A stretch of 45,219 nt of DNA from a virus (lineage: Duplodnaviria > Heunggongvirae > Uroviricota > Caudoviricetes). Both the position numbers and the translations under genes were made by a program. Positions 1 to 43,619 of this stretch are shown one piece after another. Position 1 is the first letter of the stretch, and the number at the start of each line of letters is the position of its first letter. Where the stretch lies: positions 1 to 45,219 of the IMG/VR virus record IMGVR_UViG_2740892444_000003. The stretch is one strand, 5' to 3'. Below the pieces are notes generated by a model that had not been told where the DNA came from, did not search any database, and was given only the letters and a program-made list of their open reading frames with translations.

Positions 1-933
1 ATGGACAACGACAAAATTGATCAACACAGCGACGAAATTGAAGTTGAGAGCGAAGAAAAAGAGCGCGGCAAAAAAATAGAAATAGATGAAGACCGACTCC
101 CCTCCCGGGCGATGGCAATTCATGAGCATATCCGCCAGGATGGTGAAAAAGAGCTGGAACGCGACGCAATGGCGCTACTGTGGTCAGCCATTGCGGCGGG
201 TCTGTCGATGGGCGCTTCGTTACTGGCAAAAGGGATATTTCATGTCGAACTGGAAGGTGTGCCGGGCAGCTTCTTACTGGAGAATCTCGGTTATACCTTT
301 GGTTTTATTATCGTCATTATGGCCCGCCAGCAATTATTTACCGAAAACACCGTGACTGCGGTACTACCCGTCATGCAAAAACCGACAATGAGCAACGTCG
401 GCTTACTTATGCGATTATGGGGCGTCGTGCTGCTGGGTAATATTCTCGGGACAGGTATTGCTGCATGGGCATTTGAATATATGCCTATCTTCAATGAAGA
501 AACTCGCGATGCATTTGTCAAAATCGGCATGGATGTGATGAAGAACACCCCCAGCGAGATGTTTGCCAACGCGATCATTTCCGGCTGGCTGATCGCCACT
601 ATGGTATGGATGTTTCCTGCAGCAGGTGCGGCAAAGATTGTGGTGATTATATTGATGACCTGGCTTATTGCCCTGGGTGACACCACCCATATCGTGGTCG
701 GTTCTGTTGAAATCCTCTATCTGGTGTTTAACGGTACGCTGCACTGGAGCGATTTCATCTGGCCCTTCGCACTACCTACTTTAGCGGGGAACATCTGCGG
801 CGGCACCTTTATCTTCGCGTTAATGAGTCATGCACAGATTCGTAACGACATGAGCAACAAGCGTAAAGCAGAAGCACGCCAAAAAGCAGAACGTGCGGAA
901 AACATTAAGAAAAATGATAAAAACCCGGCATAA
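1..933 (+). CDS. yfdC: Inner-membrane formate/nitrite-transporter-family protein YfdC (310 aa)
   Basis: Full-length ORF from the track; hydrophobic multi-helix protein recognised as E. coli YfdC, the gene that precedes argW in K-12. Confidence 0.8.
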   Translation: MDNDKIDQHSDEIEVESEEKERGKKIEIDEDRLPSRAMAIHEHIRQDGEKELERDAMALLWSAIAAGLSMGASLLAKGIFHVELEGVPGSFLLENLGYTFGFIIVIMARQQLFTENTVTAVLPVMQKPTMSNVGLLMRLWGVVLLGNILGTGIAAWAFEYMPIFNEETRDAFVKIGMDVMKNTPSEMFANAIISGWLIATMVWMFPAAGAAKIVVIILMTWLIALGDTTHIVVGSVEILYLVFNGTLHWSDFIWPFALPTLAGNICGGTFIFALMSHAQIRNDMSNKRKAEARQKAERAENIKKNDKNPA

Positions 934-1008
934 ATGGCGAGGGTTTAAGCAATCGAGCGGCAGCGTACTTACCCCGCACTCCATTAGCGGGTATACTCAT
1001 GCCGCATT

Positions 1009-1083
1009 GTCCTCTTAGTTAAATGGATATAACGAGCCCCTCCTAAGGGCTAATTGCAGGTTCGATTCCTGCAGGGGACACCA
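1009..1083 (+). tRNA. argW: tRNA-Arg (anticodon CCU), attachment site of the prophage
   Basis: 75-nt sequence GTCCTCTTAGTTAAATGGATATAACGAGCCCCTCCTAAGGGCTAATTGCAGGTTCGATTCCTGCAGGGGACACCA read directly; cloverleaf-compatible with anticodon loop CTCCTAA (CCU), T-arm GGTTCGATTCC and CCA end. Confidence 0.9.
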
Positions 1084-1244
1084 TTTATCAGTTCGCTCCC
1101 ATCCGTACCAGTCCGCAAAATTCCCTGAATATCAAGCCTTCCGTAGATTCACAGTTCGTCATGGTTCGCGTCAGATCGTTGACAGCCGCACTCCATGACG
1201 GGTAAAAAGTGGATAAAATAATTTTACCCACCGGATTTTTACCC

Positions 1245-2402
1245 ATGCTCACCGTTAAGCAGATTGAAGCAGCAAAGCCGAAAGAAAAACCATACCGCCT
1301 ACTCGATGGTAATGGACTGTACCTTTATGTCCCTGTATCCGGGAAAAAGGTATGGCAGCTTCGCTACAAGATTGACGGTAAGGAGAAAGTCCTAACCGTA
1401 GGAAAATATCCGCTAATGACTTTGCAGGAGGCAAGGGATAAGGCATGGACTGCGAGGAAAGACATCTCGGTTGGCATCGATCCGGTAAAAGCGAAAAAGG
1501 CTTCGTCTAACAACAATTCCTTTAGCGCCATTTACAAGGAATGGTACGAGCACAAGAAGCAAGTCTGGTCAGTAGGCTATGCAAATGAACTTGCCAAAAT
1601 GTTTGATGACGACATTTTACCCATCATCGGCGGCCTTGAGATTCAGGATATTGAGCCGATGCAACTGCTGGAAGTAATCCGCAGATTCGAAGATCGCGGT
1701 GCAATGGAGCGAGCCAACAAAGCCCGCAGAAGATGTGGCGAGGTTTTCCGTTACGCTATTGTCACCGGAAGGGCTAAATATAACCCAGCACCTGACCTTG
1801 CTGACGCCATGAAGGGATACCGCAAGAAGAACTTCCCGTTTCTTCCTGCAGACCAGATCCCGGCATTCAACAAAGCACTGGCAACATTTTCAGGAAGTAT
1901 CGTATCGCTCATTGCCACCAAGGTTTTGCGCTATACAGCCCTAAGAACGAAAGAGCTTCGTTCCATGCAATGGAAGAACGTCGATTTTGAAAACAGGATT
2001 ATCACCATCGACGCCAATGTGATGAAGGGACGCAAAATTCATGTGGTTCCTATGTCAGACCAGGTGGTTGAACTTCTCACTACGCTAAGCTCAATCACCA
2101 AACCAGTATCAGAGTTTGTTTTTGCCGGGCGCAACGATAAGAAGAAGCCAATCTGCGAGAATGCGGTATTGCTTGTGATCAAACAAATCGGCTATGAGGG
2201 TCTGGAAAGCGGTCACGGATTCAGGCATGAATTCAGCACGATTATGAACGAGCACGAATGGCCTGCTGATGCTATTGAAGTGCAACTGGCACATGCCAAC
2301 GGCGGATCTGTGCGCGGTATTTACAACCATGCTCAGTATCTAGATAAGCGCAGAGAAATGATGCAGTGGTGGGCGGACTGGATTGATGAAAAGGTGGAGT
2401 GA
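1245..2402 (+). CDS. intS: Tyrosine-recombinase integrase (P4-type)
   Basis: ORF immediately downstream of the tRNA; track ORF begins at a GTG at 1209, likely ATG start at 1245 (MLTVKQIEAAKP...); integrase-like C-terminal region; matches K-12 IntS from memory. Confidence 0.85.
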   Translation: MLTVKQIEAAKPKEKPYRLLDGNGLYLYVPVSGKKVWQLRYKIDGKEKVLTVGKYPLMTLQEARDKAWTARKDISVGIDPVKAKKASSNNNSFSAIYKEWYEHKKQVWSVGYANELAKMFDDDILPIIGGLEIQDIEPMQLLEVIRRFEDRGAMERANKARRRCGEVFRYAIVTGRAKYNPAPDLADAMKGYRKKNFPFLPADQIPAFNKALATFSGSIVSLIATKVLRYTALRTKELRSMQWKNVDFENRIITIDANVMKGRKIHVVPMSDQVVELLTTLSSITKPVSEFVFAGRNDKKKPICENAVLLVIKQIGYEGLESGHGFRHEFSTIMNEHEWPADAIEVQLAHANGGSVRGIYNHAQYLDKRREMMQWWADWIDEKVE

Positions 2403-2551
2403 TCCACCTTAACTATCGAAGAGCACAAAGTCTTGCAATCCAGTGCAAAGCTTTGCGTACCAGAGTTTTTCCTCATCAACTACCGCAAGTATCGATCGAT
2501 TGAGACTTGGATGATAGACTTCATGTCTTTCAGAACTCATTGATTAAATAA

Positions 2552-2914
2552 ATGTTAAAGCTATTTGCAAAGTACACCTCGATTGGTGTGCTGAACACAC
2601 TTATACACTGGGTGGTTTTTGGTGTATGTATCTATGCCGCGCATACCAATCAGGCTCTGGCAAACTTCGCAGGTTTCGTTGTGGCTGTGAGCTTTAGCTT
2701 CTTCGCGAATGCAAAATTCACATTCAAAGCATCGACTACAACGATGCGCTACATGTTATATGTCGGGTTCATGGGAACACTGAGTGCTACTGTTGGATGG
2801 GCTGCTGATAAGTGCTCGCTTCCTCCAATTATCACTCTTATCACCTTCTCCGCCATCAGCCTGGTGTGCGGTTTCGTCTATTCAAAGTTCATTGTCTTTA
2901 GGGATGCGAAATGA
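2552..2914 (+). CDS. gtrA: GtrA flippase-like bactoprenol-glucose translocase (120 aa)
   Basis: Small four-helix hydrophobic protein directly upstream of and overlapping (ATGA) the GtrB gene; canonical gtrABC organisation. Confidence 0.8.
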
Positions 2915-3840
2915 AAATTTCTTTAGTCGTTCCGGTCTTTAACGAAGAGGCCACGATACCTATTTTTTATAAAGCCGTGCGCGAATTTGAAGGGCTTCAG
3001 CAGCATGAAGTCGAGATAGTCTTCATAAACGATGGCAGCAAAGACGCTACAGAATCAATTATCAACGAGCTTGCTGTTGCCGACCCGCTTGTGGTTTCGC
3101 TGTCGTTCACACGTAACTTCGGCAAAGAACCTGCCCTGTTCGCAGGTCTGGACCATGCTACCGGGGAGGCAATTATCCCGATTGACGTTGATCTGCAAGA
3201 CCCTATCGAAGTTATTCCTCACTTGATAGAGAAATGGCAGGCCGGTGCAGATATGGTTCTGGCTAAACGCTCTGACCGCTCCACTGACAGCAGGCTGAAG
3301 CGTAAATCTGCTGAGTGGTTCTATAAACTTCATAACAAAATCAGCAACCCTCAGATAGAAGAGAATGTTGGCGACTTCCGGCTCATGTCTCGCGAAGTAG
3401 TAGAAAACATTAAGCTCATGCCAGAACGAAACCTGTTTATGAAGGGGATACTATCCTGGGTAGGTGGTAAGACAGATGTGGTTGAATACGTAAGAGCCGA
3501 AAGAGCCGCAGGAAAAAGTAAGTTTAATGGCTGGAAGCTTTGGAATCTGGCGCTTGAAGGGATAACGAGTTTTTCTACCTTCCCGCTGAGAATGTGGACG
3601 TATATCGGTCTCTTCGTAGCCGGTTGCTCATTTTTTTATGGGGCATACATGATTGTGGATACCCTTTGTTTTGGCAATCCGGTGAAGGGATATACATCGA
3701 TAATGGTATCGATGCTATTCCTTGGCGGCGTTCAGCTGATAGGTATTGGAGTGCTCGGCGAATACATTGGCCGCATTTACATCGAAACAAAGAACAGACC
3801 AAGATACATTACGAAAAGGGATAATGTTGAACATGAGTGA
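2911..3840 (+). CDS. gtrB: GtrB bactoprenol glucosyltransferase (GT2 family, 309 aa)
   Basis: N-terminal GT2 fold (VPVFNEE...DGSKD...DxD region) with C-terminal membrane helices; follows gtrA. Confidence 0.85.
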
Positions 3841-5317
3841 TTCAGCGTTAAAAAACGATAAATTCCAGCGAATTTTTAGAATTGTTTTGCCATTGTCCAT
3901 TTTATACATATCTTGGATTGTTTTTACTGGCAGACTTTACATTGATGACTTAGGCCGTTCTCTTTACGGTTATACATCGTGGGGACAGGACGGCAGGCCA
4001 GCCTCTGATCTATTAATGTCAGCCTTGAGTTTTGGCACGCCAATCCTAGACATTACACCCCTTCCCCAGATTTTATCTGTCATTGCCTTAAGTGCAGTTC
4101 TGTCACTTTGGGGGGTAAAGTATCTGCCAAGAAAAGGCACAACCTCTTCTGCTGTATGTGTTTTATATTTTATTCTATCACCATTTTTCCTTGAGAATAT
4201 CTCATATCGTTATGACTCACTACCTATGTCTTTGAGTCTTGTTGCACTATTATTGCCATATGCATTGAAGAAAAAACCTTGGTCTCCTTTTCTACATTTC
4301 ATTTCTGTTATCGCTTCCCTGTCTTTTTATCAGGCATCAATATCGTTATTCATATTACTTATGATTATTGATGTAATTCATCTTTATTTTTCTAAAAAAG
4401 ATGATTTAAGACATCTAGAAATAATCAAGTCAATTGCAATTAACACGCTTGCCTTTGCTGCTGGATTTGTTTTTTATAAGGTATTAATTGCTAGCTCCTT
4501 TGCGTCAGGCTCTTATTCTGATGAGCACTCAAAAATTATAAACGTTGACCACACCTTTTTTGATGTACTGTATAATAATACAGTTGTCATATTTACGTGG
4601 CTTTTAAACCCGCTTTATAAGTGCTCACCTTTTCTCTTTAAGGGGTGCGCATTGATCTTGCTAGTTAGCATCATAAAGATATCAATGACATCCAAAGATG
4701 TGAAATCCAGAGTTATTAACTTATTTTTACTTTCCGCCTTGATTACTGCGGGCTTTTTCTCTTGCTTTGCACACATTGCACTTCTTAAAACCCCTGTGCT
4801 AGCGCCTAGAGTATTAATATCTTTCACAGGATTCTTCCTGCTTTTTGCATACCTAGTAGTCCAAGCCTTTGAAAGTAAAAAAATTCAGCTGATACTTTTG
4901 GCCCCTGTTGTTTTTTTTAGTTTCATACTTTCATTTTCTTATGCAAACGCATCAAGCTCCCAAAAGGAGCTAGATAAATTAATTTCCACCTCAATTTATA
5001 ACGACATTTCTCATCAAGATTTGAGTTTTAAAAATGTTTTCATTCATGGCGTTATGCCAACATCGAAGCAGAGGGCATTGATAGTCGAGAGACTTCCGAT
5101 AATGAATTCTCTGATACCTATTTATTTAAATAACAATTGGTCTTGGGGGGCTATGATTCTTAAGCATTACCTTCTCGACTACAATGTGGACGCAACAATT
5201 ACAGATCCAAAAAAGGAAATCTGCTCCTTAACACCATTCTCCAGGTCTAAGGATTATTCACTATACAGCAAAGGTGATACCTTAATAGTATCATTTGATA
5301 AGACTGGATGCCGCTGA
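3824..5317 (+). CDS. Serotype-specific O-antigen glucosyltransferase (GtrC-type polytopic membrane protein)
   Basis: Long very AT-rich ORF encoding a multi-pass membrane protein directly after gtrB; the track ORF starts upstream inside gtrB, most plausible start is ATG 3824 (or 3833) with an AAGGG RBS. Confidence 0.7.
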
Positions 5318-5325
5318 TTAAAGTC

Positions 5326-5355: not shown

Positions 5356-5748
5356 CCAGTCAATATCAGGTGCCTTGGAAGTATCAACCCGGCTTAAAAG
5401 CACGCGATATTTTTTCAGTGTAGTTAACTGTGTTCTTTCTTCATCTGTCGCCATGTCTAGGTCGACCGCATCCTGTAGCACGTCGATGCGCTGGCTGGCG
5501 TCATCCATTAGCATCTTCTTCATTGCTACGTTTGACTGGATTTTTGCCTGGGTTAGATCTTCCTGCTGCTGCTCGGTCAAAGGTGGGCGCGAAAAATTAG
5601 CGCCGTCATACAGATAGCCAGGCCCGGCAATGTTGCTTTCATCGTATTCAACAACAATCGTCCCAGCATCATGCTGGTATTCTCCTTCCCCATCCCAAAG
5701 GAAAGTATTTTCCACTACTCCATCACGAACTAATGCCCATGTTTTCAT
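5347..5748 (-). CDS. Tail fibre assembly chaperone (Tfa)
   Basis: Small ORF immediately downstream of the tail fibre gene with start overlapping its stop; start taken at internal ATG (MKTWALV...). Confidence 0.65.
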
Positions 5749-6758
5749 TACGCATACTCCCAAATAATAACCAGCCCAGGTGCGCCATCACCACCAGCCA
5801 CAGCAGCATTGCCCGCTGTAACGGATGATGGGCCGCCGCCAGAACCGTAACCCGAACCATTGATGCCATGAGCATTGTTGGCTGTAATGTATCCTCCTGC
5901 GCCGAAGCGAGACGATCCACCAGGGGCGTCGACAATTATTGAAGAACTGATAACGACGGAGGAGCTGGCGCCTTCACCTGGAGTGCTAATTATGTTCGCC
6001 CCGGTAGCACCGCCTGAAACTACCGCCGCCACGGTAGAAAAAGGGAAATTGTTAGTTGGCCCTGCTGGTTCCCCTGAACTGCCACCTGCCGCCGTCATCA
6101 GGCTGCCGAAAGATGATGTGCCGCCGACAGAAGGATATACATCGGAAACCGTTCCACCCAAACCCTTGCCGCCAACAGTAACCTGAACCCCACTAAATCC
6201 AGAAGTGAACTGCCCTTTAGCGTAAGATCCAGCGCCACCGGCACCACCAACGGATACCTGGCCAGGTCCTGCGGCGCGCGCTCCAGCGCCCCCCCCTCCC
6301 CCGCCAACCATTTCAACAATTACTTTTTTCGTGCCGGGAGTAGCATTATAAATACCGGAACTGTAGAAAACCCGCACGTTCAGCAGGCGACCAACGTATC
6401 CGCTCTCATCTCCCAAACCGAGGTTTTCGAGAGCCGTTTTCACCGTGCCATCCGATTTGATATCGCCAAACGGATTCTTGCGGCTCAGGTATTCAACAGC
6501 AAATCCCGATCCCAGCAATTCAACAAAACCGGGCAGATCACCATTATCAAGCACATCCCGTTGCGTTTTGTCACTTACAAACTGGGCCAGAGCTGCAGCA
6601 ATAAAGCTGGCCTGCCGAATAACCTTATTGACTTGCGCACTGGATGCTTTCCCTGCTGTAAATCCGGATAAAAGCGCAGGCAACGCTTCCCATTCCTCCT
6701 GCGACATAACATTGGCATTCCGATCAGTTGCAAACGCTTTAAAGTCATTTTTCGCCAT
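5748..6758 (-). CDS. Tail fibre protein with glycine-rich repeat region
   Basis: ORF with long Gly/Ala/Ser-rich tracts ([25 protein letters not shown]...) between baseplate genes and Tfa; start taken at ATG overlapping the upstream stop. Confidence 0.65.
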
Positions 6759-7438
6759 CAGAGTAATACTCCCCATGCCCCTACATCAAAACCACTGATG
6801 AATTCGTTATCCATATCAAAACCAAAAAATTTTGAGCCTTCCGATGGAGTTTCCACCGAAGGTGTTTCAATGCCCCCCGCCCATACCCCGGCGGCTTTTA
6901 CTGTTAGATACCCCTGTTTAATTGCCGCAATTAACTCACGCGATACATCTGAAATATCAGTATCAGGAAAGACCCAGACCGATATCGTCATGTCCTGGTT
7001 ATCGACTATCTGCATTCGCAGCCCGGATCCTGCTGTTGCAGCGTCAAGAATTGCTGGAAGCGAATCATTCCGTCCGTCCCAGTTATTAATCGCAATCTTC
7101 GCTTTAAGGATGACACGATAAGTTTCATCGCTGAGGTACATGTATCCGGAATCAGGATCGTATGGCCCCTGCCATACACCCTGATCATATCCAAGCCCGT
7201 CGGTATCCCAGCTGAAATAGACACCTGAGATAGGCTGGCTGACAACACGGCTACGCCCGATCCACAATCCCAGAATGTCAAGTTGCACACCAACGGCAGA
7301 GTCAATATCAAATGCAGTAATCAGCCCTCTGGTGGCAGCCGCAACATCAATAAGCGGCCGGGTCATCAGATCAACATGTGCAAGAAATTTAGGTTTGGTG
7401 GCGTGGTAGTTCGTGATTAGTTCGGTGTATTTGCTCAT
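6758..7438 (-). CDS. Baseplate protein (P2 gpI-like)
   Basis: Position between baseplate J-like and tail fibre genes in a V-W-J-I-H-G gene order; 226 aa. Confidence 0.5.
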   Translation of the reverse strand: MSKYTELITNYHATKPKFLAHVDLMTRPLIDVAAATRGLITAFDIDSAVGVQLDILGLWIGRSRVVSQPISGVYFSWDTDGLGYDQGVWQGPYDPDSGYMYLSDETYRVILKAKIAINNWDGRNDSLPAILDAATAGSGLRMQIVDNQDMTISVWVFPDTDISDVSRELIAAIKQGYLTVKAAGVWAGGIETPSVETPSEGSKFFGFDMDNEFISGFDVGAWGVLL

Positions 7439-8634
7439 GACTCCACCGTTATAACGATATTTTCCGGGGTACAGGACGCAGATTCGTTGTATCTGATATC
7501 AATGTTTGATGACGACAAAGCCCCCGGGGATTTCCCAATCGTCAGTTCCTGAATATCGTAATAGCGTGCATTCCCGCCACTCACCACGCCAAGATTCGCC
7601 GGTGAGTAAATGCGACTTAAAAGGACCGAATCACCGATCGTCAGACTATTGATATAGTCGGAAATAGCCTGCTGGATCTGCTGCCCTATCTGTGAGGTAT
7701 AACCCGTAAAAACTTTTAATTTAATCCGGGCATAAACAGGCACATCACTGGAACGCGAGAATTTGATTACATGGGGATTGCCGTATTTATCCGGAACCGT
7801 AACGGATGTTGTACCGTGAGTGGCTGTACCCTGGCCTTTATTCCCTCTGATAGCCTGAGCAATATCCGTCACATCACCGCCATCCACAATTACAGCAACA
7901 GAGTGTGGCGGTAACCCGTTACCGTCCTCCGAACCAGTATCGTTTTCATAGAGTTTGTGGCGGGTTACACCGGTAACATTAGAAACAGCACCATCCAGTG
8001 CTTCAAATGGGGTTATTGATGGCAACGCAACACTTTGCGACTGGCGGATACGTAACTCAGCATCATTTTCTGCCGGAGAGCCAACAGTAGCCGCAGCAGG
8101 ATTAGTTACCGAAACCCAGCCACGGGTTGGCGTATTAATTTCAGTGATAGTTCCAGCCAGCGCCGCCACTGCACCACTGACGGAACATGTTGCGGTCACC
8201 ATCACTGTACCATCCACGCCGACCACCACTGAAGCAGGCAAACGCCATATCACATTATTACTGTCTTTCACGCTGCCATTAATGATGGTTGTTCCGGCAG
8301 TTCCTGTAAGAAGCAAATCAACCGTAGAGTTCGTCGCGCCTTTACGTGAAATACCATTTATTTTCACGTTACTGGTCAGTGCAGCCCCATAGCCGGTTGC
8401 CGGTGAAAAACAGTTGTAGACAGTTATCGCCATATTATTGGTATCATGAATCGCCAGCGCCATCAGAGCCACCATCTGGCCGTCTTTGCTGTCCGGTTCG
8501 AGGTAGGCATCACTGCCATAAATCTGCTGAAAATAGCTAATCAGGGTGCTGAGTATCGTCTGATAATCAGGCGCACTGATCCCCTCCGCGGTTACCTTTG
8601 CAGATAAACCGAGAGAATCAAGGTTCAGAGCCAT
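7435..8634 (-). CDS. Baseplate J-like protein
   Basis: 399-aa ORF in the conserved position after the gpW-like gene; size and order typical of baseplate J/gp47. Confidence 0.55.
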   Translation of the reverse strand: MALNLDSLGLSAKVTAEGISAPDYQTILSTLISYFQQIYGSDAYLEPDSKDGQMVALMALAIHDTNNMAITVYNCFSPATGYGAALTSNVKINGISRKGATNSTVDLLLTGTAGTTIINGSVKDSNNVIWRLPASVVVGVDGTVMVTATCSVSGAVAALAGTITEINTPTRGWVSVTNPAAATVGSPAENDAELRIRQSQSVALPSITPFEALDGAVSNVTGVTRHKLYENDTGSEDGNGLPPHSVAVIVDGGDVTDIAQAIRGNKGQGTATHGTTSVTVPDKYGNPHVIKFSRSSDVPVYARIKLKVFTGYTSQIGQQIQQAISDYINSLTIGDSVLLSRIYSPANLGVVSGGNARYYDIQELTIGKSPGALSSSNIDIRYNESASCTPENIVITVES

Positions 8635-8987
8635 TACGCCTCCGATGTAACAGTCGTTATTCCATAAAGAGTGTCGATTTCAGCGGAAAACATGACACGT
8701 CGGGTCGTGGTATCCACCGTCGTATTGAAAGAGAGGATTGATTTAACGCCCCGCGTTTCGAGGATGCGCTTACGGATCGCCAGGTTGTAGGTTTCCGGCT
8801 TCTGCTTACCGAGTACGGACTGGATCCACGGAGTCCCCTCGGTGGTGTCGAGAAACCATTGCCCATACCACAATTCGAATCGCGTTTTTACCGCCTGCGC
8901 CACGGCCTCCGGTGAGTTAATCAGCCAGGTATCATCGCCGCTGCCAAAGGTGTAATCGCCATCGGCGTCTTCACGTCTGTATCGCAT
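8634..8987 (-). CDS. Baseplate protein (gpW/gp25-like)
   Basis: 117-aa ORF between spike and J-like genes; overlapping start/stop coupling. Confidence 0.5.
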   Translation of the reverse strand: MRYRREDADGDYTFGSGDDTWLINSPEAVAQAVKTRFELWYGQWFLDTTEGTPWIQSVLGKQKPETYNLAIRKRILETRGVKSILSFNTTVDTTTRRVMFSAEIDTLYGITTVTSEA

Positions 8988-9742
8988 CAGTTAGGCGCTC
9001 CTGTGTTACCGCCGCCGGTCTGTACTCCGCCGTGCGTGTGCGTCATCAGGCTCTTACCACCAGCTTTTACATCGTTAGTCACCGTGACAGGGCCAAGCAT
9101 CGTCGCGGTGCCGCCGCTTTCGCCCATCCCCTGAGAGAGATTCCCGTTTATTGTCACGTTGCCGTTTAGCGTGATGGTGGGTGATGTGATCGTGGTTCCT
9201 CCTTCTGCTGTCGCCGTCAGCGCGCCGGGGGTTTTAACCGTGATGTTATGGCCTGCGGCCACTTCCACAAACGCAGCGCCATCATCAGTACGCAGTTGCG
9301 CGGCGCTGGTGCTGATTCCGCTGATTTTCTGCGCCTGAGACTGCGGACCGACGATACAGAACGCATCCGATAAATCATGCATTCTGTCATCAACCGTCTC
9401 CTGTATCCCGCCGCTCTGCCACCAGAAATCAATACAACGATCGGCAAAAACGACAAGACACTCATCCCCAGCCTTTACCGGAAAAGTCAACGTACAGCCT
9501 CCGCCGCGTGGGAATACCACCGGCACATCCACCAGCAGCGGGTAATTTTTGGTAACGCGATTGCCGTCGTTATCCGTTTCAACCGAACGGATAGAAGGCT
9601 GCACAACCGCCGTCACAGCGTCAGGATCGAATGACTGGACGATGCCAGGCAAAGCGACTCGGATCTGGTTCTTTGTTGTTTCCCGTTCAGATTTGAATGT
9701 TTCAGCAAGGTCGCCGCTGCGGGTCTGGTCAGATACTGCCAT
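8987..9742 (-). CDS. Baseplate assembly/spike protein (gpV-like)
   Basis: 251-aa ORF with Gly/Thr-rich C-terminal beta-repeat region typical of spike proteins; position before gpW-like gene. Confidence 0.55.
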   Translation of the reverse strand: MAVSDQTRSGDLAETFKSERETTKNQIRVALPGIVQSFDPDAVTAVVQPSIRSVETDNDGNRVTKNYPLLVDVPVVFPRGGGCTLTFPVKAGDECLVVFADRCIDFWWQSGGIQETVDDRMHDLSDAFCIVGPQSQAQKISGISTSAAQLRTDDGAAFVEVAAGHNITVKTPGALTATAEGGTTITSPTITLNGNVTINGNLSQGMGESGGTATMLGPVTVTNDVKAGGKSLMTHTHGGVQTGGGNTGAPN

Positions 9743-9761
9743 TTAGTAGGCTCCAGAAAGC

Positions 9762-9786
9762 AAAAAACCCGCCGGGTGGCGGGTTT
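9762..9786 (-). terminator. Rho-independent terminator ending the two-gene moron cassette
   Basis: On the minus strand, stem CCCGCC/GGCGGG with a 4-nt loop followed by TTTTTTG, directly after the stop of the 9785..10201 gene. Confidence 0.7.
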
Positions 9787-10201
9787 ATGAATCGTAGGTT
9801 TTCAATTTTTCGAGTTCATCAGGAGGAAGTTCTATGAAGGTTTCCTCTGCTAATTTTATCAGCCGGGGAAGCATCGAATCAGCTTGCTGATGAGCGTTTG
9901 GGCTGATGATTGCCAATATCTGATAGTGTTCATCGATATAAAGATGCTGAGCATATACCAAAAAATTATCACATGTCCGTTCACTCAGAGATGCTTCTGG
10001 AGGCCAGGGTTTATCGCCAGGTAGCTTTAAGTGAATTTTCCTGATGTTGGCAGCCATCGCATCATAGTTACGTTCAAAACCGCCTAACGAACCAAAACAC
10101 CAGAACTGGGAACCCTTTGAAATATAATCGGCAAGCATTTGAGCATACTTATGTGCTGCAGCTAAATGACGCAATTCTCCCGTGATACTGACTTTTGCCA
10201 T
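9785..10201 (-). CDS. YafO-like toxin candidate (138 aa), moron gene
   Basis: Motifs FERNYD, KIHLKL, LVYAQH, LAIISPNAH resemble the conserved blocks I recall for E. coli YafO (FGRDALYDD, HIHL, HLVYCQG, LIAILKPEPH); lower GC than flanking tail genes; start overlaps the upstream gene stop. Confidence 0.45.
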   Translation of the reverse strand: MAKVSITGELRHLAAAHKYAQMLADYISKGSQFWCFGSLGGFERNYDAMAANIRKIHLKLPGDKPWPPEASLSERTCDNFLVYAQHLYIDEHYQILAIISPNAHQQADSMLPRLIKLAEETFIELPPDELEKLKTYDS

Positions 10202-10202
10202 G

Positions 10203-10775
10203 TCACATCCATTTAGGGGCGTTGGCTCCCAGCATCTTATGCGATGTTGAGATCAGTTCAATAGCCTCTTCACGGGTAACATTATCTGACAAGAGTTCAG
10301 CCTGGAAAGGCTGCGATTGCCTAACTTCAGCGGCCAACTGAGTTGCAGTGTTCTCGACGGCGGTCAACGCACGAACATATTTGCGTTTTAATGGGCGCAA
10401 CATTTGCAGATGGCCTTGCCACATAGGGGACCTTTCCGCTTCAGAGAACATATCCACTAAATGTCCTTTAGCATTTCGGCATGCCTTGGCAAGACCTTCG
10501 AGATGGGATAAAAACCCTTCCGGAAGCTCATCAACAATGATTCTCCCATTTCGAAAAGCTTCGAGATGAGACATGCCTTCCTTCGCGGTATTTTCGATTT
10601 CTTGAGCGCGTGCAGCAATCGCGGTACAACGACGAAATGCCTCTTCAGCATCTAATCGTTGTGGCAGTTCACAAGCATTAGAGATCAGGGGTTTGAAAGC
10701 ACCGTTAACAGCTTCCTGAACCTGATTCATTTGTTGTGTAATTGTTGCCAGCGCAAATGCGTAGCTAATCGCCAT
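10203..10775 (-). CDS. Hypothetical alpha-helical protein (190 aa), upstream partner of the YafO-like gene
   Basis: ORF with GAGGGA RBS before ATG at 10775 (track ORF begins 2 codons earlier at TTG); no recognisable domain; coupled to the downstream toxin-like gene. Confidence 0.5.
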   Translation of the reverse strand: MAISYAFALATITQQMNQVQEAVNGAFKPLISNACELPQRLDAEEAFRRCTAIAARAQEIENTAKEGMSHLEAFRNGRIIVDELPEGFLSHLEGLAKACRNAKGHLVDMFSEAERSPMWQGHLQMLRPLKRKYVRALTAVENTATQLAAEVRQSQPFQAELLSDNVTREEAIELISTSHKMLGANAPKWM

Positions 10776-10781
10776 ACCCAA

Positions 10782-10943
10782 TCCCTCTGTCGTTTTAAAC
10801 GACTATACACCACTTATTCAAAGTTAGCTGAGCGCTAAAAGTTCGCAAAGTTTAGTGATCATGCAACCACCTAGCAAGCGATAAAAAATCATTATTTAGT
10901 GAATGTGAACAAACTCAACACTATGCAGAAATGTAACTTTTGG
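10782..10943 (-). promoter_or_regulatory. AT-rich intergenic region, probable promoter of the moron cassette
   Basis: 162-bp AT-rich gap inside an otherwise tightly packed, translationally coupled tail operon, immediately upstream of the cassette. Confidence 0.35.
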
Positions 10944-11276
10944 TTAACCAGAAACCTTTTTGCATGGAAAGGAACCGATGATTTTCGGCGCATCCATGCT
11001 GTTCTGCAGCAGTTGGACATTCAGGAAAGCTTTTCCGTTACGTTTCACAAACTCAAAGCCGTAATTGTTACCATCACGGGAAGGCATCAGGCCCATGTCC
11101 ATTTTTATGTTTGAATAGTCACCATCTTTTCCCAGAAATTTTATCTTCTGTGATGTGACAGTTTCACCGTTAATAACAGTCATTCCGTCACCGGTCATCG
11201 TGTAGTTGCCGCACTGAATTGCAGCCATCGCCGGAGCAGTAACCATCATAACTAACGCCAAACATAACCGTTTCAT
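10944..11276 (-). CDS. Small secreted protein with Sec signal peptide (about 110 aa)
   Basis: N-terminus MKRLCLALVMMVTAPAMA followed by a soluble domain; start overlaps the stop of the gpD-like gene. Confidence 0.5.
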   Translation of the reverse strand: MKRLCLALVMMVTAPAMAAIQCGNYTMTGDGMTVINGETVTSQKIKFLGKDGDYSNIKMDMGLMPSRDGNNYGFEFVKRNGKAFLNVQLLQNSMDAPKIIGSFPCKKVSG

Positions 11277-12340
11277 TAAAGCCCTCTTTCCCTCGCTGAT
11301 GAGGAAACAAGATCCGCCGCGCCACGCGCTTCGCACATCATATCCATGTACCACGCCTGGCCCCTTGTATCGCCAGTGTACATAATCCCGCGCACAATAT
11401 AAACGCCATCCGTTGCGATGCTGGCAGGCTGCGATGTGGTGCCGCTTAGCGTGATATTTCCATCCGTGTTCTGGTCGGTGATCTGACCACCAGCCATCGC
11501 AATATCGTTGTTCGACAAGGCGGTACGATACACGGAAGCCTGATCCAGCTGAATAAGTCCGTTAACCCGGATGTTCGGATTAATAAGCGCGCGGACGTTT
11601 ACGCCGTTACCGATAGTCTGCTGCGGCATGCCAATAAGCCCGGTAGCGCTGTTGAGCACAATCGCTTCATGAACATATTCGTTATTCGCCACCATCTGGC
11701 GCTGACCGTCCACGAATTGCCATGTTGCGCCACATTGCCCGGCTACGTTATCCATTAGATGCCGCGTCATGCCAAAGAGTACCCGCCCCCGGGGGAATAC
11801 AGTAGCAGGCATTTCAGGCGTCAGGCCTTCGGTCGCGCCTTTGGCTTCGAAGTCTTTCATCAGCGCACGGTTTACATCAGCGACCGTGTAACCGGCAGCC
11901 AGCGTCTGTGAGGTTATACTGGTGGCAAAAGCCAGATCAGTATCTGCTGCCTGAATCAGGACGTAGGAATCAACCGGACTGTCTTTTCCTGTGACCGAGT
12001 AGCGAATTTCACCGCTGAAAATCAGTCCGTAGTTGCGGCCATCACTCTGACCCACGTCCGCCGCGTCAACTTCCCGCACGGTCCCGACGTCGCTTGCCGA
12101 CACCTCCGGCGCGATACCGTCGTAACCGGCAATCAGACGCACTTTCGAAAACTCCTGCCCGGTGATTCGGTTCACAGTATCTGCCGAGAGGTTATAAATT
12201 TTGATAGTCCCTACCCGGGACGCGCTGCTGATGTTGAACCAGTCGATCGTAAAGGTGACTTTAAAATCACTTAGCTCAATTCCCTGACCGTTCCCGTCCA
12301 CAAGCTGCAGCTCGAAATGTCTCATCCAGTTCTGTGACAT
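11276..12340 (-). CDS. Tail protein (P2 gpD-like)
   Basis: 354-aa ORF in the T-U-X-D order after the tape measure gene. Confidence 0.5.
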   Translation of the reverse strand: MSQNWMRHFELQLVDGNGQGIELSDFKVTFTIDWFNISSASRVGTIKIYNLSADTVNRITGQEFSKVRLIAGYDGIAPEVSASDVGTVREVDAADVGQSDGRNYGLIFSGEIRYSVTGKDSPVDSYVLIQAADTDLAFATSITSQTLAAGYTVADVNRALMKDFEAKGATEGLTPEMPATVFPRGRVLFGMTRHLMDNVAGQCGATWQFVDGQRQMVANNEYVHEAIVLNSATGLIGMPQQTIGNGVNVRALINPNIRVNGLIQLDQASVYRTALSNNDIAMAGGQITDQNTDGNITLSGTTSQPASIATDGVYIVRGIMYTGDTRGQAWYMDMMCEARGAADLVSSSARERGL

Positions 12341-12342
12341 GC

Positions 12343-12645
12343 TTACTCCGTTGATACCAGTAAATGGCTGCGACCGCCTAGGTCAGTTTTTGTGGGGTAA
12401 TCCTGTGTGTTGTCATCACAGACCACCACCAGCTTAAAACCAAGCCCCATACAGGCGTACTGCGCCAGCAGGTCAGCACCGGTGACGAGAGGAATACCGG
12501 AGATTACCGGCTCCCCTCTGTCGTTCTGCAGGTCCATAATCCAGTAAAGATCGCGCCATATGATGTTAATCCGCCAGGTGACACCACCCAGGACGATACT
12601 GAACTGCTGGTTATCCGCTGTCAGCGGAATTTCCTGAATTGTCAT
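12343..12645 (-). CDS. Small tail protein (gpX-like)
   Basis: 100-aa ORF between gpU-like and gpD-like genes. Confidence 0.4.
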   Translation of the reverse strand: MTIQEIPLTADNQQFSIVLGGVTWRINIIWRDLYWIMDLQNDRGEPVISGIPLVTGADLLAQYACMGLGFKLVVVCDDNTQDYPTKTDLGGRSHLLVSTE

Positions 12646-13232
12646 TATCCGCCTCCCAGTAATGACGCCACGTTACCCGTGATGCTTTTCAGCAGTGAAG
12701 TATCTGGAGGCTTTGTGGTTTTGTTGCCGCTATTCTGTACCGCCGACGTGCTGGCCCCTTCCTTCATGTTGGTTTTATCCGCGACGGTAATCTGCTGTGT
12801 CCGGGAGATAATGACCTCCCTCAGGGTGAGGACGGCGGACAGGACGTTTTCGGTTGTCTTGTCCGTCGTCACTTCCAGCGCCCGGATCAACATGTTGCTG
12901 TACAGCCGTTTACCGGTTACCACATCGAAGGGGATACGGCTTTCCTGCAGATCCAGTAGCTCCTGATACGTCTGCTGAGGACTCAGGCCGAGCAGGCTGG
13001 TAGCCGTCAGATTACTGGCAAAATCCAGCAATGCGCCGCCACCGGCGAAACCAACCTCCATCACCACTTCTGACGGTTTTTTATAGGCATGATCAGCGAC
13101 AGCGGCCCCAACCTCTACCGGATGCTCTGTTATTTCAAGCATATCTGTATGCTTCTCTGAAATAACAACACTGGGAACAATCATTCCTATTTTTCTGCTC
13201 TGCTGATGAAAAAGTGTAGAGAGAATATCCAC
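12645..13232 (-). CDS. Tail protein (gpU-like)
   Basis: 195-aa ORF immediately after the tape measure gene; apparent GTG start. Confidence 0.4.
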   Translation of the reverse strand: MDILSTLFHQQSRKIGMIVPSVVISEKHTDMLEITEHPVEVGAAVADHAYKKPSEVVMEVGFAGGGALLDFASNLTATSLLGLSPQQTYQELLDLQESRIPFDVVTGKRLYSNMLIRALEVTTDKTTENVLSAVLTLREVIISRTQQITVADKTNMKEGASTSAVQNSGNKTTKPPDTSLLKSITGNVASLLGGG

Positions 13233-15220
13233 TAACCCACCCTCACCTGATTACTTCGCATGACCTGAGCATTTGCAGACTGTTGCCGACGTGCAACCTC
13301 ATTACCGACAGCGTGCGGATCTCCGCCACCGTAAATGTGGTAAGTATTTTGCTGGTTAACCTCTGTCATTTTGCCACTAATTCCCGCCACGGCAGCCTTA
13401 TTAATCAGCTCTCGAGAATAGATATTTCTTCCATTTTCATGCTGGATAATGCTGCTCATCAATGCTGACATGGTTTGCGGATCGCTCATATTCAGGGCAG
13501 CCCGGGGATCCACTCCCAGTCGTTGCGATACAGCCCTGATATACGCAGTTGTGTTGTTATTATCAGACGCAGGTGCCCAGGTAGAGATAATTTTCTCCAC
13601 GCTGTTTATTCCCCGTCCGGCGTACAACATTAACTGACGAGCAAGAGCCCGTAATCCATCAAAAGCAGTTTCAAATCTGGCAAATCGCCCGCCCGGGCGT
13701 TCAAGAGAAGCCCCTGCCTGACCAGCAAAATTAAGGTTTCCCGGATTGTTATTCCGTTCTCCTCGTTTCGTAGCCTGTGCATATTGTTCCGGCTCATCAT
13801 CACCAAACCAGCCGCGTACCGTCCGGCCCACACTGCGGGGATCGAATCCCCAGTGCTCTTTAATCCAGTCGGCAGTACTGTTAGCGCTGTCTGTAACCAT
13901 CGGCATCGCTGACGGATTTTCGCTGCCCTGATTAAGTATCTGTTTGCCGATGCTGACGGCATCAGCCCAGCGGCCATCTTTGATAGCGTTGAGCAGGTCG
14001 GCGATCATGTTCAGCATTTTGCTGAATTCGCCCATCTGGTCGATGAAGTTGCTGAAATCCCACTTCAGGGACCATGATTTGGGGTCAATATTGAGCAGTT
14101 TCGCCAGCGCTTTCGCCAGTTCATTAACAGACCCTTTCAGGTCACGAACCATCTTCAGCGCGGCATCGACCTCCGGCTTCCACTTGCCCCAGTCAATCAG
14201 GCTGTCGCCGCCTTCCTTCCAGGTCTGATAGTCCTCCCACAGAAGGGCAATCCCCGCCGCCAGCGCGGTAATGAGGCCAATCGGCGACATCCAGAACGTA
14301 CTGTTCAGAATGCGCAGCGCAATCGTCAGCGCGCCAAACAGCGAGATGAGCTCCCGCGTTTGCTTATCCAGCGATTGCCACCAGGTGATGAGGCCTGATG
14401 TTCCTTCAATCAGTCTGAAGAACAGCCGCCCGATAATATCCCCGAGCGCCAGAATGCCTTTTATGGCTTTCGTCAGGGTCTGCTCGATACGCGGGAGGTT
14501 GTCCAGGATATGGCGGCGCAGAGTGTCCAGCGAACCCGCAAGCCCACCCGCAAGATTAGAGCCGATTTTGTCACGGGCCATGCCTGCCATCGCGCCAAAC
14601 TCACGCAGGGAGGTCATAAATTTGTTGGAGCTTCTGGCCGCCTCGTCAGCATTGAAGCCGATAGCTTTCGCCATTGCGCTGTACTGCCCGGAGAAATCAC
14701 CCACACCCCGGCGCATCGCCATGAGGGTATTTTCGTCAATGCCCAGCATCTGCGCATACTGGTTAGCCCGGTAATACGGCATGCTGCTGAGCTTCTGTCC
14801 GACACCCGTAAAGATAGCGGCCATGTCACGCATGTTACCGCTGGCATCACGGGTCTGTACGCCCAGGCGATTCAGAAAGCCTTCTGCACCGGGATTGTTG
14901 CGAATAAACCGGGAGAGGCTTTCCAGAGAAGAGCGCGCAGCGTCCACGCTGCCGCCAACCTGCGAAACCGCATAGCCAATAGACTGAATCCCCTGAACCG
15001 TCGCGCCGGTGCGCTGTGACGCCCAGTAGAGATTATCCAGACCGGAGGCGATCTTAGCCGTGAAGGCCACCACGGACAGCGCAGCTCCTTCAACAGCCAG
15101 CCCCATTTTGATGACATTTGCAGTTGTACCGGCGAGGACAGAACCGAACTTTTTCGCTCCTGCATCATCCACACTGAAGCCAAGCGAGACGAGGAAATCT
15201 TTAATAGTTTCAGCGTTCAT
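13232..15220 (-). CDS. Tail tape measure protein
   Basis: Long ORF rich in Ala/Gly/Leu helical segments located after the chaperone gene; track start is TTG at 15241, ATG with GGAGAGAGG RBS at 15220. Confidence 0.75.
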   Translation of the reverse strand: MNAETIKDFLVSLGFSVDDAGAKKFGSVLAGTTANVIKMGLAVEGAALSVVAFTAKIASGLDNLYWASQRTGATVQGIQSIGYAVSQVGGSVDAARSSLESLSRFIRNNPGAEGFLNRLGVQTRDASGNMRDMAAIFTGVGQKLSSMPYYRANQYAQMLGIDENTLMAMRRGVGDFSGQYSAMAKAIGFNADEAARSSNKFMTSLREFGAMAGMARDKIGSNLAGGLAGSLDTLRRHILDNLPRIEQTLTKAIKGILALGDIIGRLFFRLIEGTSGLITWWQSLDKQTRELISLFGALTIALRILNSTFWMSPIGLITALAAGIALLWEDYQTWKEGGDSLIDWGKWKPEVDAALKMVRDLKGSVNELAKALAKLLNIDPKSWSLKWDFSNFIDQMGEFSKMLNMIADLLNAIKDGRWADAVSIGKQILNQGSENPSAMPMVTDSANSTADWIKEHWGFDPRSVGRTVRGWFGDDEPEQYAQATKRGERNNNPGNLNFAGQAGASLERPGGRFARFETAFDGLRALARQLMLYAGRGINSVEKIISTWAPASDNNNTTAYIRAVSQRLGVDPRAALNMSDPQTMSALMSSIIQHENGRNIYSRELINKAAVAGISGKMTEVNQQNTYHIYGGGDPHAVGNEVARRQQSANAQVMRSNQVRVG

Positions 15221-15397
15221 TATCCTCTCTCCATTTCTCAATGCGCCGCTGGTTATCCGCTTTTACCGCCAGATGGTCATTCAAGAGAGCAATGTCGTAC
15301 AAATCGACAGAGCCATCTTTAAGTGCTGTATAAGGAATTAACCCGGCGTCAACCGGATTGAGAAGGTAAGACAGCCCGTCCGGCAGGCTGTTAAACG

Positions 15398-41834: not shown

Positions 41835-41857
41835 TTTAGAAAAATAAGGATTTAATT

Positions 41858-42151
41858 ATGCCAGCGCCTCTGTATGGTGCGGATGACGCGCGCCGCTGTT
41901 CCGGCAATTCCGTATCGGAGGTGCTGGATAAATTCAGAAAAAACTACGATCGGATAATGTCGCTACCGCAGGAAACGAAAGAGGAAAAGGAATTTCGCCA
42001 TTGTATATGGCTTGCAGAGAAAGAAGAACTCGAGCGAATTTACCAGACATCAATCCGACCATTCCGCAAAGCCACATATACCCACTTCCCTGAAATTGAC
42101 CCGCGCCTGCGTAATTACCGCTCACGCTATGGCGCTATCAGTAATGACTGA
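41858..42151 (+). CDS. abc2: Anti-RecBCD protein Abc2
   Basis: 97-aa protein ([31 protein letters not shown]...) recognised as P22 Abc2-like. Confidence 0.7.
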
Positions 42152-42161
42152 GGAATTTACC

Positions 42162-43158: not shown

Positions 43159-43167
43159 GTAAATTTA

Positions 43168-43577: not shown

Positions 43578-43619
43578 GCCTGATTTGCAGGTTCGATTCC
43601 CTATTCGGAGATAGCACTC

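What the first reader, a model, noticed from the sequence alone, without database searches (positions are those of the whole stretch)
10944..11276. Secreted small protein encoded inside the tail operon, coupled to the gpD-like gene
A ~110-aa protein with a clear Sec signal peptide (MKRLCLALVMMVTAPAMA) starts exactly at the stop of the gpD-like tail gene. Virion tail proteins are assembled in the cytoplasm, so a periplasm-targeted product here is more consistent with a moron, for example an exclusion or envelope-modifying factor, than with a structural component.
Basis: inference. Interest (0 to 1): 0.55.

Follow-up and report, generated by a model that had tools for sequence, protein, structure and literature searches.

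The report
Secreted accessory protein in tail operon
A real, strongly conserved gene for a small exported protein sits between two baseplate genes of an E. coli prophage; it is optional cargo in a gene-insertion hotspot, not a tail part, and its function is still unknown.

Summary
Window 10944-11276 (minus strand) encodes a 110-aa protein whose ATG overlaps the stop of the baseplate-hub gene (TAATG), with a GAGGG ribosome site and a canonical Sec/SPase-I signal peptide. The gene is real: more than 400 homologues and dN/dS 0.08. The signal peptide varies in sequence but keeps its signal character. The mature part carries two invariant cysteines and is predicted to form a small all-beta barrel.

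It is not a core tail component. Phages with the same baseplate (Pam3, PSTCR3, Ab105-1phi) have hub directly followed by spike. Hafnia phage yong1 has replaced it with a different secreted protein, leaving a 3' remnant. Its divergence is decoupled from the flanking tail genes. Distant relatives are orphan chromosomal or plasmid genes.

It is not a classical self-transcribed moron either: it has no promoter or terminator of its own and is coupled to the hub in the Q-dependent late operon. The neighbouring YafO-type toxin cassette is the true moron.

The hub-spike junction is a cargo hotspot rich in envelope-targeted proteins and defence-like genes. The most likely role, inferred only, is an envelope-acting exclusion or protection factor. 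No known family matches, and MliC/PliC membership was tested and rejected.

The parts
10944..11276 (-). CDS of the 110-aa exported protein (stop TAA at 10944-10946, ATG at 11274-11276).
   Evidence: ORF list and sequence. PGAP calls the same CDS, WP_034169223.1. phrog_3443 at E 2.7e-53. 412 homologues. dN/dS 0.084.
11223..11276 (-). Signal peptide, residues 1-18 (MKRLCLALVMMVTAPAMA), with predicted SPase-I cleavage after Ala18.
   Evidence: The sequence shows n-, h- and c-regions with an A-x-A site. The region varies in sequence across the family (mean identity 0.64 against 0.87 for the mature part; dN/dS 0.26 against 0.054) but keeps signal-peptide character in 127-136 of 140 members.
10947..11222 (-). 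Mature domain, residues 19-110. Predicted small all-beta barrel with invariant Cys22 and Cys105, which probably form a disulfide between the first and last strands.
11282..11286 (-). Ribosome-binding site GAGGG, 5 nt upstream of the ATG and inside the 3' end of the hub gene.
   Evidence: Read directly from the sequence.
11276..12340 (-). Baseplate hub gene (E217 gp41 / Pam3 gp19 type). Its TAA stop overlaps the target ATG (TAATG), which implies translational coupling.
   Evidence: phrog_196 'baseplate hub' at E 4e-89; PF22759 at E 6e-5, below the Pfam cutoff. Overlap read from the sequence.
9765..10918 (-). Second cargo unit of the same hub-spike hotspot. It has a promoter-like site (10918..10891), a 190/192-aa protein of unknown family (10203..10781), a YafO-family toxin (9785..10201) and a strong terminator-like hairpin (9786..9765). 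This unit is the classical moron.
   Evidence: PF13957 YafO_toxin at E 4e-17. Promoter and terminator scan. Present in only 5 of about 80 related loci (L046, L074, L076, L082 and the window).
8987..9742 (-). Baseplate spike gene, the downstream boundary of the cargo hotspot.
   Evidence: Spike N-terminal domain PF18352 at E 1e-43 plus the GpV Apex motif. It is directly adjacent to the hub in Pam3, PSTCR3 and Ab105-1phi.

Best explanation
The gene encodes a small Sec-exported periplasmic protein that is accessory cargo of a SEN34/Brunovirus-like lambdoid myovirus prophage, not a virion part.

Shown or strongly supported:
1. The precursor carries a canonical cleavable signal peptide, and the mature ~92-aa domain is a compact beta-barrel with one conserved Cys pair.
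2. The gene occupies the first position of a cargo hotspot between the baseplate hub and spike genes, which are adjacent in the ancestral layout.
3. It has no transcription signals of its own, and its start is coupled to the hub stop. It is therefore made with the tail proteins from the Q-antiterminated late operon. Any expression in lysogens would need read-through or an undetected promoter.
4. It is under purifying selection as strong as the hub, but it recombines independently of the tail genes.

Inferred:
- After export and DsbA-dependent disulfide formation, it binds a conserved envelope component.
- This makes the infected or lysogenic cell refractory to envelope penetration or DNA entry by further phages, or protects the envelope during late infection.
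- That would make it a superinfection-exclusion or protection-type function, analogous to T4 Spackle, HK97 gp15, T5 Llp or P1 Sim.

Confidence by part: about 0.85 for 'exported, non-structural accessory protein expressed with the late operon', and about 0.35 for the exclusion/protection mechanism. The single confidence figure of 0.5 is a compromise between the two.
For: - Signal-peptide features are conserved across the family while the sequence drifts.
- Distant homologues also start with signal peptides. A fused variant (P0137/P0156) is a lipoprotein (lipobox LSGC/LVSC) sitting in the same slot directly after the hub.
- Hub and spike are adjacent in Pam3, PSTCR3 and Ab105-1phi. The Pam3 baseplate is built from gp17-gp23 with no such protein (PMC9942802; summarised in PMC11633184).
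- yong1 carries a different signal-peptide protein in the slot plus the remnant '...SSMDAPKLIGSFPCKKVPG*'.
- Other occupants of the junction are also envelope-targeted: two secreted proteins in EKP1, a reverse-strand secreted protein in Burkholderia phage Magia, clusters C5 and C32 (signal peptides), and C2, C16, C17 and C37 (N-terminal TM).
- Defence-type cargo occurs in the same interval: YafO pairs, a T5orf172/MUG113 protein and an Mrr_cat nuclease.
- Coupling: TAATG overlap, an RBS, no promoter or terminator, and a start 1-3 nt after the hub in all 84 related loci carrying the gene.
- The prophage encodes a Q antiterminator upstream of the lysis, head and tail genes.
- dN/dS is 0.054 for the mature part.
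- Divergence correlates only 0.29-0.54 with the tail genes, whereas tail genes correlate 0.73-0.90 with one another.
- Precedents for exclusion genes embedded in late or tail operons: HK97 gp15 (PMC3430355, cited) and the P2 hotspots (PMC9122126).
Against: - There is no experimental or literature evidence for any function.
- No PADLOC, Pfam or NCBIfam hit.
- A lysogen-protecting exclusion factor is normally expressed from its own promoter, and none was found.
- Very strong purifying selection and the absence of diversifying evolution are atypical for proteins in an arms race with phage parts.
- Distant homologues are orphan chromosomal or plasmid genes with no phage context. That fits a general envelope-physiology role equally well.
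- Signal-peptide cleavage was judged by rules, not by SignalP or experiment.
Confidence: 0.5

Rival explanations
1. Lysogenic-conversion or host-fitness factor unrelated to phage competition. On this reading it is a periplasmic ligand- or protein-binding beta-barrel (calycin/avidin/FABP-like) captured from a bacterial chromosome. It would alter envelope physiology, stress tolerance or host interaction, as Gifsy-2 SodCI, lambda Bor and Lom do.
For: - Distant homologues are orphan chromosomal genes (L097 between cls/yciY and yciI; L100 near tsx/yoaK) or plasmid-borne (L098).
- The best fold matches are ligand-binding barrels: avidins, the Tp0751 lipocalin, FABPs.
- The mature domain is highly conserved (mean pairwise distance 0.10) and independent of the tail genes.
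- About 6% of complete E. coli genomes carry the gene, always on the chromosome.
Against: - No own promoter, and coupling to a late gene, argue against steady expression in lysogens.
- The close phage-borne homologues examined were all found directly after the hub.
- No cofactor- or metal-binding residues are evident: the mature sequence has no His or Trp.
Confidence: 0.2
2. Periplasmic inhibitor of a peptidoglycan hydrolase, working like MliC/PliC/PhiA or T4 Spackle. It would neutralise the lytic-transglycosylase domain at the C-terminus of the tape-measure protein of incoming phages. Alternatively it would restrain the phage's own muralytic enzymes until lysis.
For: - The tape-measure gene carries a C-terminal muralytic domain, annotated 'lytic transglycosylase' (PF01464 SLT in relatives).
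- The N- and C-terminal Cys pair resembles the arrangement in MliC (own reading of the MliC sequence from memory).
- One remote homologue lies near an orphan Hcp gene.
Against: - hhalign of the family profile against E. coli MliC gives 1.7% probability, and no Pfam MliC hit was found.
- Divergence correlates least with the tape-measure C-terminal domain (Spearman 0.29).
- Relatives lacking the gene (yong1, EKP1, Ab105-1phi) still have the SLT/lysozyme-like tape measure, so there is no co-occurrence.
Confidence: 0.12
3. Genuine tail or baseplate assembly factor or minor virion protein. The hydrophobic N-terminus would be a membrane-interaction or assembly segment rather than a cleaved signal peptide.
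For: - It is tightly coupled to the hub and conserved in position in 84 of 84 related loci carrying the gene.
- Purifying selection equals that on the hub.
- In some phages it is the only gene between hub and spike (L011, L012, L071, L075).
Against: - It is absent from phages with the homologous baseplate, including the structurally solved Pam3.
- In yong1, which was deposited as an isolated phage (its propagation was not checked here), it is replaced by an unrelated secreted protein.
- The N-terminus has every feature of a cleaved Sec signal, and a lipoprotein variant exists.
- It is decoupled from the tail genes evolutionarily.
- Non-phage homologues exist.
Confidence: 0.05

Closest known systems
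Phage morons embedded in late or tail operons (HK97 gp15, lambda lom/bor; concept of Juhala et al. 2000; HK97 gp15: PMC3430355)
   Same: It is an optional gene inserted between essential tail genes of a lambdoid temperate phage. It has lower G+C than its neighbours, an envelope-located product, and presence/absence and replacement polymorphism among relatives.
   Different: It has no promoter or terminator of its own and is translationally coupled to the preceding structural gene. Its product is soluble and periplasmic, whereas HK97 gp15 is an inner-membrane protein and Lom/Bor are outer-membrane proteins. There is no sequence similarity.
T4 Spackle (gp61.3), a periplasmic superinfection-exclusion protein that inhibits the tail lysozyme gp5 (own knowledge)
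   Same: It is a ~100-aa phage protein with a cleavable signal peptide that acts in the periplasm during infection. Its phage carries a tail-borne peptidoglycan hydrolase.
   Different: Spackle is helical and is expressed early. The present protein is an all-beta barrel made late. No inhibition has been shown, and it does not covary with the muralytic domain.
MliC/PliC/PhiA periplasmic lysozyme or peptidoglycan-hydrolase inhibitors
   Different: There is no profile similarity (hhalign 1.7%) and no Pfam hit. Unrelated barrels score higher.
P2-like prophage cargo hotspots (Rousset et al. 2022, PMC9122126)
   Same: It lies at a fixed intergenic position inside the morphogenetic genes where unrelated accessory or defence genes are swapped between otherwise similar prophages.
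   Different: The phage lineage and junction differ (hub-spike of an E217/Pam3-type baseplate). The first slot is nearly always this one secreted protein. Many occupants are envelope-targeted rather than cytoplasmic defence enzymes.
PHROG family phrog_3443 (function unknown)
   Same: Direct sequence membership at E 2.7e-53 over the full length.
   Different: The family has no annotation, so membership gives no functional information.

Membership tests
Sec/SPase-I secreted proteins | Positively charged n-region, a 7-15 residue hydrophobic h-region, small residues at -3/-1, and no lipobox. | tested here: met
   The peptide is MKR / LCLALVMMVTA / PAMA|A. Family-wide, 136 of 140 members have K/R, the median h-region is 15 aa, and 127 of 140 have an [ASTV]-x-[AS] site.
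Sec/SPase-I secreted proteins | Demonstrated export and cleavage. | not testable with these tools
   This needs PhoA/BlaM fusions, cell fractionation, and N-terminal sequencing or mass spectrometry.
Moron (autonomous accessory unit, sensu Juhala et al. 2000) | A promoter of its own upstream of the gene. | tested here: not met
   The ATG overlaps the hub stop. No sigma-70-like site was found on the minus strand in 11277-11500. A consensus scan is weak evidence.
Moron (autonomous accessory unit, sensu Juhala et al. 2000) | A terminator of its own downstream. | tested here: not met
   No terminator-like hairpin lies between 10944 and 10782. In L011, L012, L071 and L075 the spike gene follows within ~65 nt.
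Moron (autonomous accessory unit, sensu Juhala et al. 2000) | Present in some and absent from other closely related phages, with deviant base composition. | tested here: met
   It is absent from PSTCR3, Ab105-1phi and Pam3 and replaced in yong1 and EKP1. G+C is 43.8% against 54.3% for the hub.
Core baseplate/virion protein of E217/Pam3-type myoviruses | Conserved in all phages sharing the baseplate module. | tested here: not met
   Hub is directly followed by spike in Pam3, PSTCR3 and Ab105-1phi.
Core baseplate/virion protein of E217/Pam3-type myoviruses | Co-divergence with neighbouring structural genes. | tested here: not met
   Spearman correlation is 0.29-0.54 with the tail genes, against 0.73-0.90 among the tail genes (28 loci). 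Hubs 97-99% identical carry 68-72% identical alleles of this gene.
Core baseplate/virion protein of E217/Pam3-type myoviruses | Detected in purified virions. | not testable with these tools
   No virion proteomics were found for any phage carrying the gene.
MliC/PliC lysozyme inhibitors (PF09864) | Sequence or profile similarity to the family. | tested here: not met
   No Pfam hit at E<=0.1.
MliC/PliC lysozyme inhibitors (PF09864) | Eight-stranded beta-barrel fold. | tested here: inconclusive
Superinfection-exclusion proteins (functional class) | Envelope location. | tested here: met
   Signal peptide in the family, and a lipoprotein variant in the same slot. This is a prediction only.
Superinfection-exclusion proteins (functional class) | Expression in the lysogen and an exclusion phenotype. 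| not testable with these tools
   No promoter was detected. No transcriptome or phenotype data are available.
PHROG phrog_3443 | Full-length profile match. | tested here: met
   E 2.7e-53, residues 3-109 against profile positions 6-114 of 115.

The most novel reading that the evidence does not exclude
The protein founds an uncharacterised family of periplasmic 'gatekeepers'. They would be encoded at the hub-spike junction of contractile-tail prophages and block the membrane-puncturing or DNA-entry step of incoming contractile injection machines (phages, tailocins, perhaps T6SS) by binding a conserved envelope component. More broadly, the hub-spike junction would be a dedicated hotspot where temperate myoviruses collect interchangeable secreted entry-blockers next to cytoplasmic defence cassettes.
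Probability: 0.15. Interest if true: 0.7.

Novelty: new member of a known kind. Interest (0 to 1): 0.4.

Why it matters
About 6% of complete E. coli genomes carry this uncharacterised exported protein, as do many Klebsiella, Salmonella, Yersinia and other Enterobacterales prophages. It has no Pfam family and no literature.

If it blocks phage entry, it would be a compact, easily testable new exclusion factor relevant to phage-therapy host range. If it is a host-fitness factor, it would be a new lysogenic-conversion protein.

Independently of its function, the hub-spike junction of SEN34/Brunovirus-like prophages emerges as a cargo hotspot. It combines secreted proteins with toxin-antitoxin and nuclease-type defence genes, which makes it a practical place to mine for new systems.

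Tried and rejected
- **Protein family libraries.** Pfam, NCBIfam and PADLOC scans of the target gave no hits.
- **Solved structures by sequence.** A PDB sequence-profile search gave only a chance hit at E 1.9.
- **MliC/PliC membership.** Rejected by hhalign at 1.7% probability.
- **Covariation with tail proteins.** I tested for covariation with the tape-measure muralytic domain or the spike, which would have pointed to a physical partner. It was not found; the tape-measure C-terminus gave the lowest correlation.
- **Co-occurrence with an SLT-type tape measure.** Rejected, because relatives lacking the gene keep that domain.
- **Literature.** Searches by phage names, accession numbers, the PHROG id and keywords found nothing on the family.
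- **Best BFVD match.** The Serratia phage Scapp 'lipoprotein' has no functional description in its genome announcement.
- **N-terminal domain of the lipoprotein-fused variant, and other junction proteins.** No Pfam hits.
- **Internal promoter in the hub 3' end.** None found at the 9-of-12 consensus threshold.
- **Alternative start.** A longer GTG start at 11354 (136 aa) was rejected, because it overlaps the hub coding frame, lacks an RBS and is not conserved. PGAP and all homologues use the ATG.

Full report
**1. What is there**

The finding's coordinates correspond to a minus-strand ORF, 10944..11276, of 110 codons. Its ATG (11276-11274) shares one base with the TAA stop (11278-11276) of the preceding 354-aa gene, giving TAATG. 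A GAGGG ribosome-binding site lies 5 nt upstream, inside that gene's 3' end.

The window is 100% identical over 9700-12400 to a prophage in E. coli BY63, where PGAP annotates the same CDS as a hypothetical protein.

The prophage is lambdoid. It carries CI/Cro/CII, replication O/P-like genes, the nin region, a Q antiterminator, a lambda-type holin, a GH24 endolysin and Rz. Its tail is a contractile tail of the E217/Pam3 type. It lies at tRNA-Arg beside intS and gtrABC-like genes.

The gene order on the minus strand is:
- tape measure with a C-terminal muralytic domain (13232-15241);
- Dit-like protein (12645-13232);
- Pam3 gp18-like plug (12343-12645);
- baseplate hub (11276-12340);
- the target (10944-11276);
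- a 190/192-aa protein plus a YafO-family toxin (9785-10781);
- spike (8987-9742);
- a 117-aa gene at the gp25/sheath-initiator position (8634-8987), assigned by position and by annotation in relatives, with no Pfam hit here;
- baseplate J (7435-8634).

The 'gpD-like' label is right only in the functional sense. The gene is a baseplate hub (phrog_196 at E 4e-89, and a weak PF22759 hit). It is not a detectable Phage_GPD member.

**2. The gene is real and its product is exported**

The large protein database holds 412 homologues at E<=1e-3. All are called hypothetical or 'secreted protein', and they come from Escherichia, Klebsiella, Salmonella, Yersinia, Serratia, Edwardsiella, Photorhabdus and other Enterobacterales. 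PHROGs places the protein in phrog_3443, function unknown. Pfam, NCBIfam and PADLOC give nothing.

In a 40-sequence alignment (A1) the first ~20 residues are poorly conserved in sequence. They always show a basic n-region, a hydrophobic core and a small-x-small site. The rest is highly conserved, with invariant C22 and C105.

Quantified over 140 full-length members:
- 136 have K/R in the n-region;
- the h-region has a median of 15 residues and mean hydropathy 2.0;
- 127 have an [ASTV]-x-[AS] site, 118 of them exactly three residues before the invariant Cys.

Pairwise dN/dS is 0.084 for the whole gene, 0.26 for the signal peptide and 0.054 for the mature part. The hub gives 0.071. This pattern is the classical signature of a cleaved signal peptide on a functionally constrained mature protein.

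An exhaustive HMM search of 1.84 billion representatives found only 64 clusters at E<=1e-3. The distant full-length members inspected also begin with signal peptides and keep both cysteines. Two members (P0137, P0156) are lipoproteins with a lipobox and an extra ~190-aa N-terminal domain. P0137 was located and lies in the same slot immediately after the hub of similar prophages.

**3. Structure**

AlphaFold2 with alignment A1 gives mean pLDDT 80, and about 82-92 across residues 21-90. The model is all-beta with seven strands, and the N-terminal helix is the signal peptide.

A family-profile comparison with E. coli MliC gives 1.7% probability. The fold therefore says 'small periplasmic beta-barrel, probably closed by a disulfide' and nothing more specific.

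**4. It is accessory cargo, not a baseplate part**

Phages with a homologous hub but more distant lineage have the spike gene directly after the hub. These are the cyanophage Pam3, whose virion structure is solved and whose baseplate core is gp17-gp23 (PMC9942802), Providencia phage PSTCR3 and Acinetobacter phage Ab105-1phi.

In Hafnia phage yong1 the hub is 78% identical, but the slot holds an unrelated protein with its own signal peptide (MNKRTVFLILSLFVPIAVMA|AP...). A 3' remnant of the target follows it (...SSMDAPKLIGSFPCKKVPG*). The gene can therefore be lost from a phage that was deposited as an isolated phage; whether yong1 propagates lytically was not checked here.

EKP1 carries two other small secreted proteins there. 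Burkholderia phage Magia carries a secreted protein on the opposite strand.

I examined 80 IMG/VR loci and four sequenced phages that contain the target. In all of them it starts 1-3 nt after the hub. The distance from the target to the spike ranges from ~65 nt, with nothing in between (L011, L012, L071, L075), to ~1.5 kb of highly diverse second-slot cargo.

That second-slot cargo includes:
- YafO-type pairs;
- other two-gene cassettes;
- a membrane-anchored T5orf172/MUG113 protein;
- a membrane-anchored Mrr-type nuclease;
- further signal-peptide or TM proteins.

The target's G+C is 43.8% (GC3 49.5%), against 54.3% (60.6%) for the hub.

Alleles are shuffled. Hubs 97-99% identical carry targets 68-72% identical, and the reverse also occurs. 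Across 28 loci the target's distance matrix correlates only 0.29-0.54 with the tail genes, whereas the hub correlates 0.73-0.90 with the other tail genes.

Remote homologues occur as orphan chromosomal genes, on a Rep3 plasmid, and in an island near an orphan Hcp.

**5. It is not a classical moron**

No promoter-like or terminator-like site flanks the gene, and its start is coupled to the hub stop. Where it is followed directly by the spike, it must be transcribed as part of the late operon.

The adjacent YafO cassette does show the moron anatomy. It has a promoter-like site at 10918..10891 and a 9-bp, GC-rich hairpin with a T-run at 9786..9765, immediately before the spike. Q-modified late transcription would be expected to read through such a terminator (established lambdoid biology; the Q gene is present).

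**6. Mechanism**

Shown or strongly supported:
- an exported, disulfide-capable beta-barrel;
- synthesis coupled to the baseplate hub;
- dispensable for the tail architecture;
- strongly constrained in sequence;
- evolutionarily independent of the tail genes.

The last two points suggest that it binds a conserved host envelope component rather than a fast-evolving phage part.

Inferred: the protein acts in the envelope to exclude or impede further phage entry, or to protect the envelope late in infection. The grounds for this are as follows:
- the slot is repeatedly filled by interchangeable envelope-targeted proteins;
- it sits next to defence-type cassettes;
- it lies between the genes of the envelope-penetrating apparatus.

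Precedents are HK97 gp15 (PMC3430355), T4 Spackle, T5 Llp and P1 Sim (own knowledge), and the P2 cargo hotspots (PMC9122126).

I give about 0.85 to the 'exported accessory protein' part and about 0.35 to the exclusion mechanism.

Rivals:
- a host-fitness conversion factor (0.2);
- a peptidoglycan-hydrolase inhibitor (0.12). This is weakened by the failed MliC test, the lack of co-occurrence with the SLT-type tape measure, and the lowest covariation with that domain;
- a structural or assembly protein (0.05).

**7. Novelty and verdict**

Secreted accessory proteins inside phage late operons are a known kind. This particular family is uncharacterised: it has no Pfam family, its PHROG has unknown function, and no literature exists. 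It is fairly common, with matches in 316-333 of 5426 complete E. coli genomes.

It is best filed as a new member of a known kind. It is moderately interesting, and the more useful by-product is the hub-spike cargo hotspot.

Noticed in passing
window 9765-10918 (minus strand): This is a two-gene cassette: a 190/192-aa protein with no Pfam family (phrog_35514), overlapping by ATGA-type coupling with a YafO-family toxin (PF13957, E 4e-17). It is flanked by a promoter-like site and a strong terminator-like hairpin. The presumed antitoxin is about twice the size of canonical YafN and unrelated to it. The cassette is present in only a few related prophages (L046, L074, L076, L082).
   Followed up: partly
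hub-spike interval in L001-L090 (e.g. L013 5331-6706, L050 5331-6712, L047 5322-6327): The interval between the target and the spike is a hypervariable cargo hotspot. It holds many two-gene cassettes (240-276 aa plus 123-142 aa), a 409-411-aa N-terminally anchored T5orf172/MUG113 protein, a TM-anchored Mrr_cat nuclease, and several other secreted or TM proteins. These are candidate anti-phage systems, mostly without Pfam hits.
   Followed up: partly
L006 4622-5091 (Hafnia phage yong1); L007 4530-5122 (phage EKP1); L009 4457-4828 minus strand (Burkholderia phage Magia): Unrelated small proteins with signal peptides occupy the same post-hub slot in relatives lacking the target. yong1 keeps a 23-codon 3' remnant of the target gene. 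EKP1 is labelled an Elizabethkingia phage, but its tail module looks enterobacterial.
   Followed up: partly
L092 5001-5879, L093 4625-5503: This is a lipoprotein variant (P0137, 292 aa). It has a lipobox, a ~190-aa N-terminal domain of unknown family and a C-terminal domain homologous to the target. It sits in the same slot directly after the hub.
   Followed up: partly
window 1-5320 and 41400-45219: The prophage lies at tRNA-Arg next to intS and gtrABC-like O-antigen glucosylation genes (yfdG etc.). It therefore looks like an intact relative of the K-12 CPS-53/KpLE1 remnant. A second tyrosine integrase and IS100/IS30/IS3 fragments lie at the other end.
   Followed up: no
window 5748-6776 (minus strand): The tail-fibre gene downstream of DUF2612 is annotated in BY63 as a truncated pseudogene (missing its C-terminus), with an unannotated gap before the tail-fibre assembly gene. 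The prophage may be adsorption-defective.
   Followed up: no
L091 4396-7208: A remote homologue of the target (P0147) sits in a non-phage island. It lies beside a lipoprotein gene, two proteins of unknown function and an orphan T6SS Hcp gene.
   Followed up: partly
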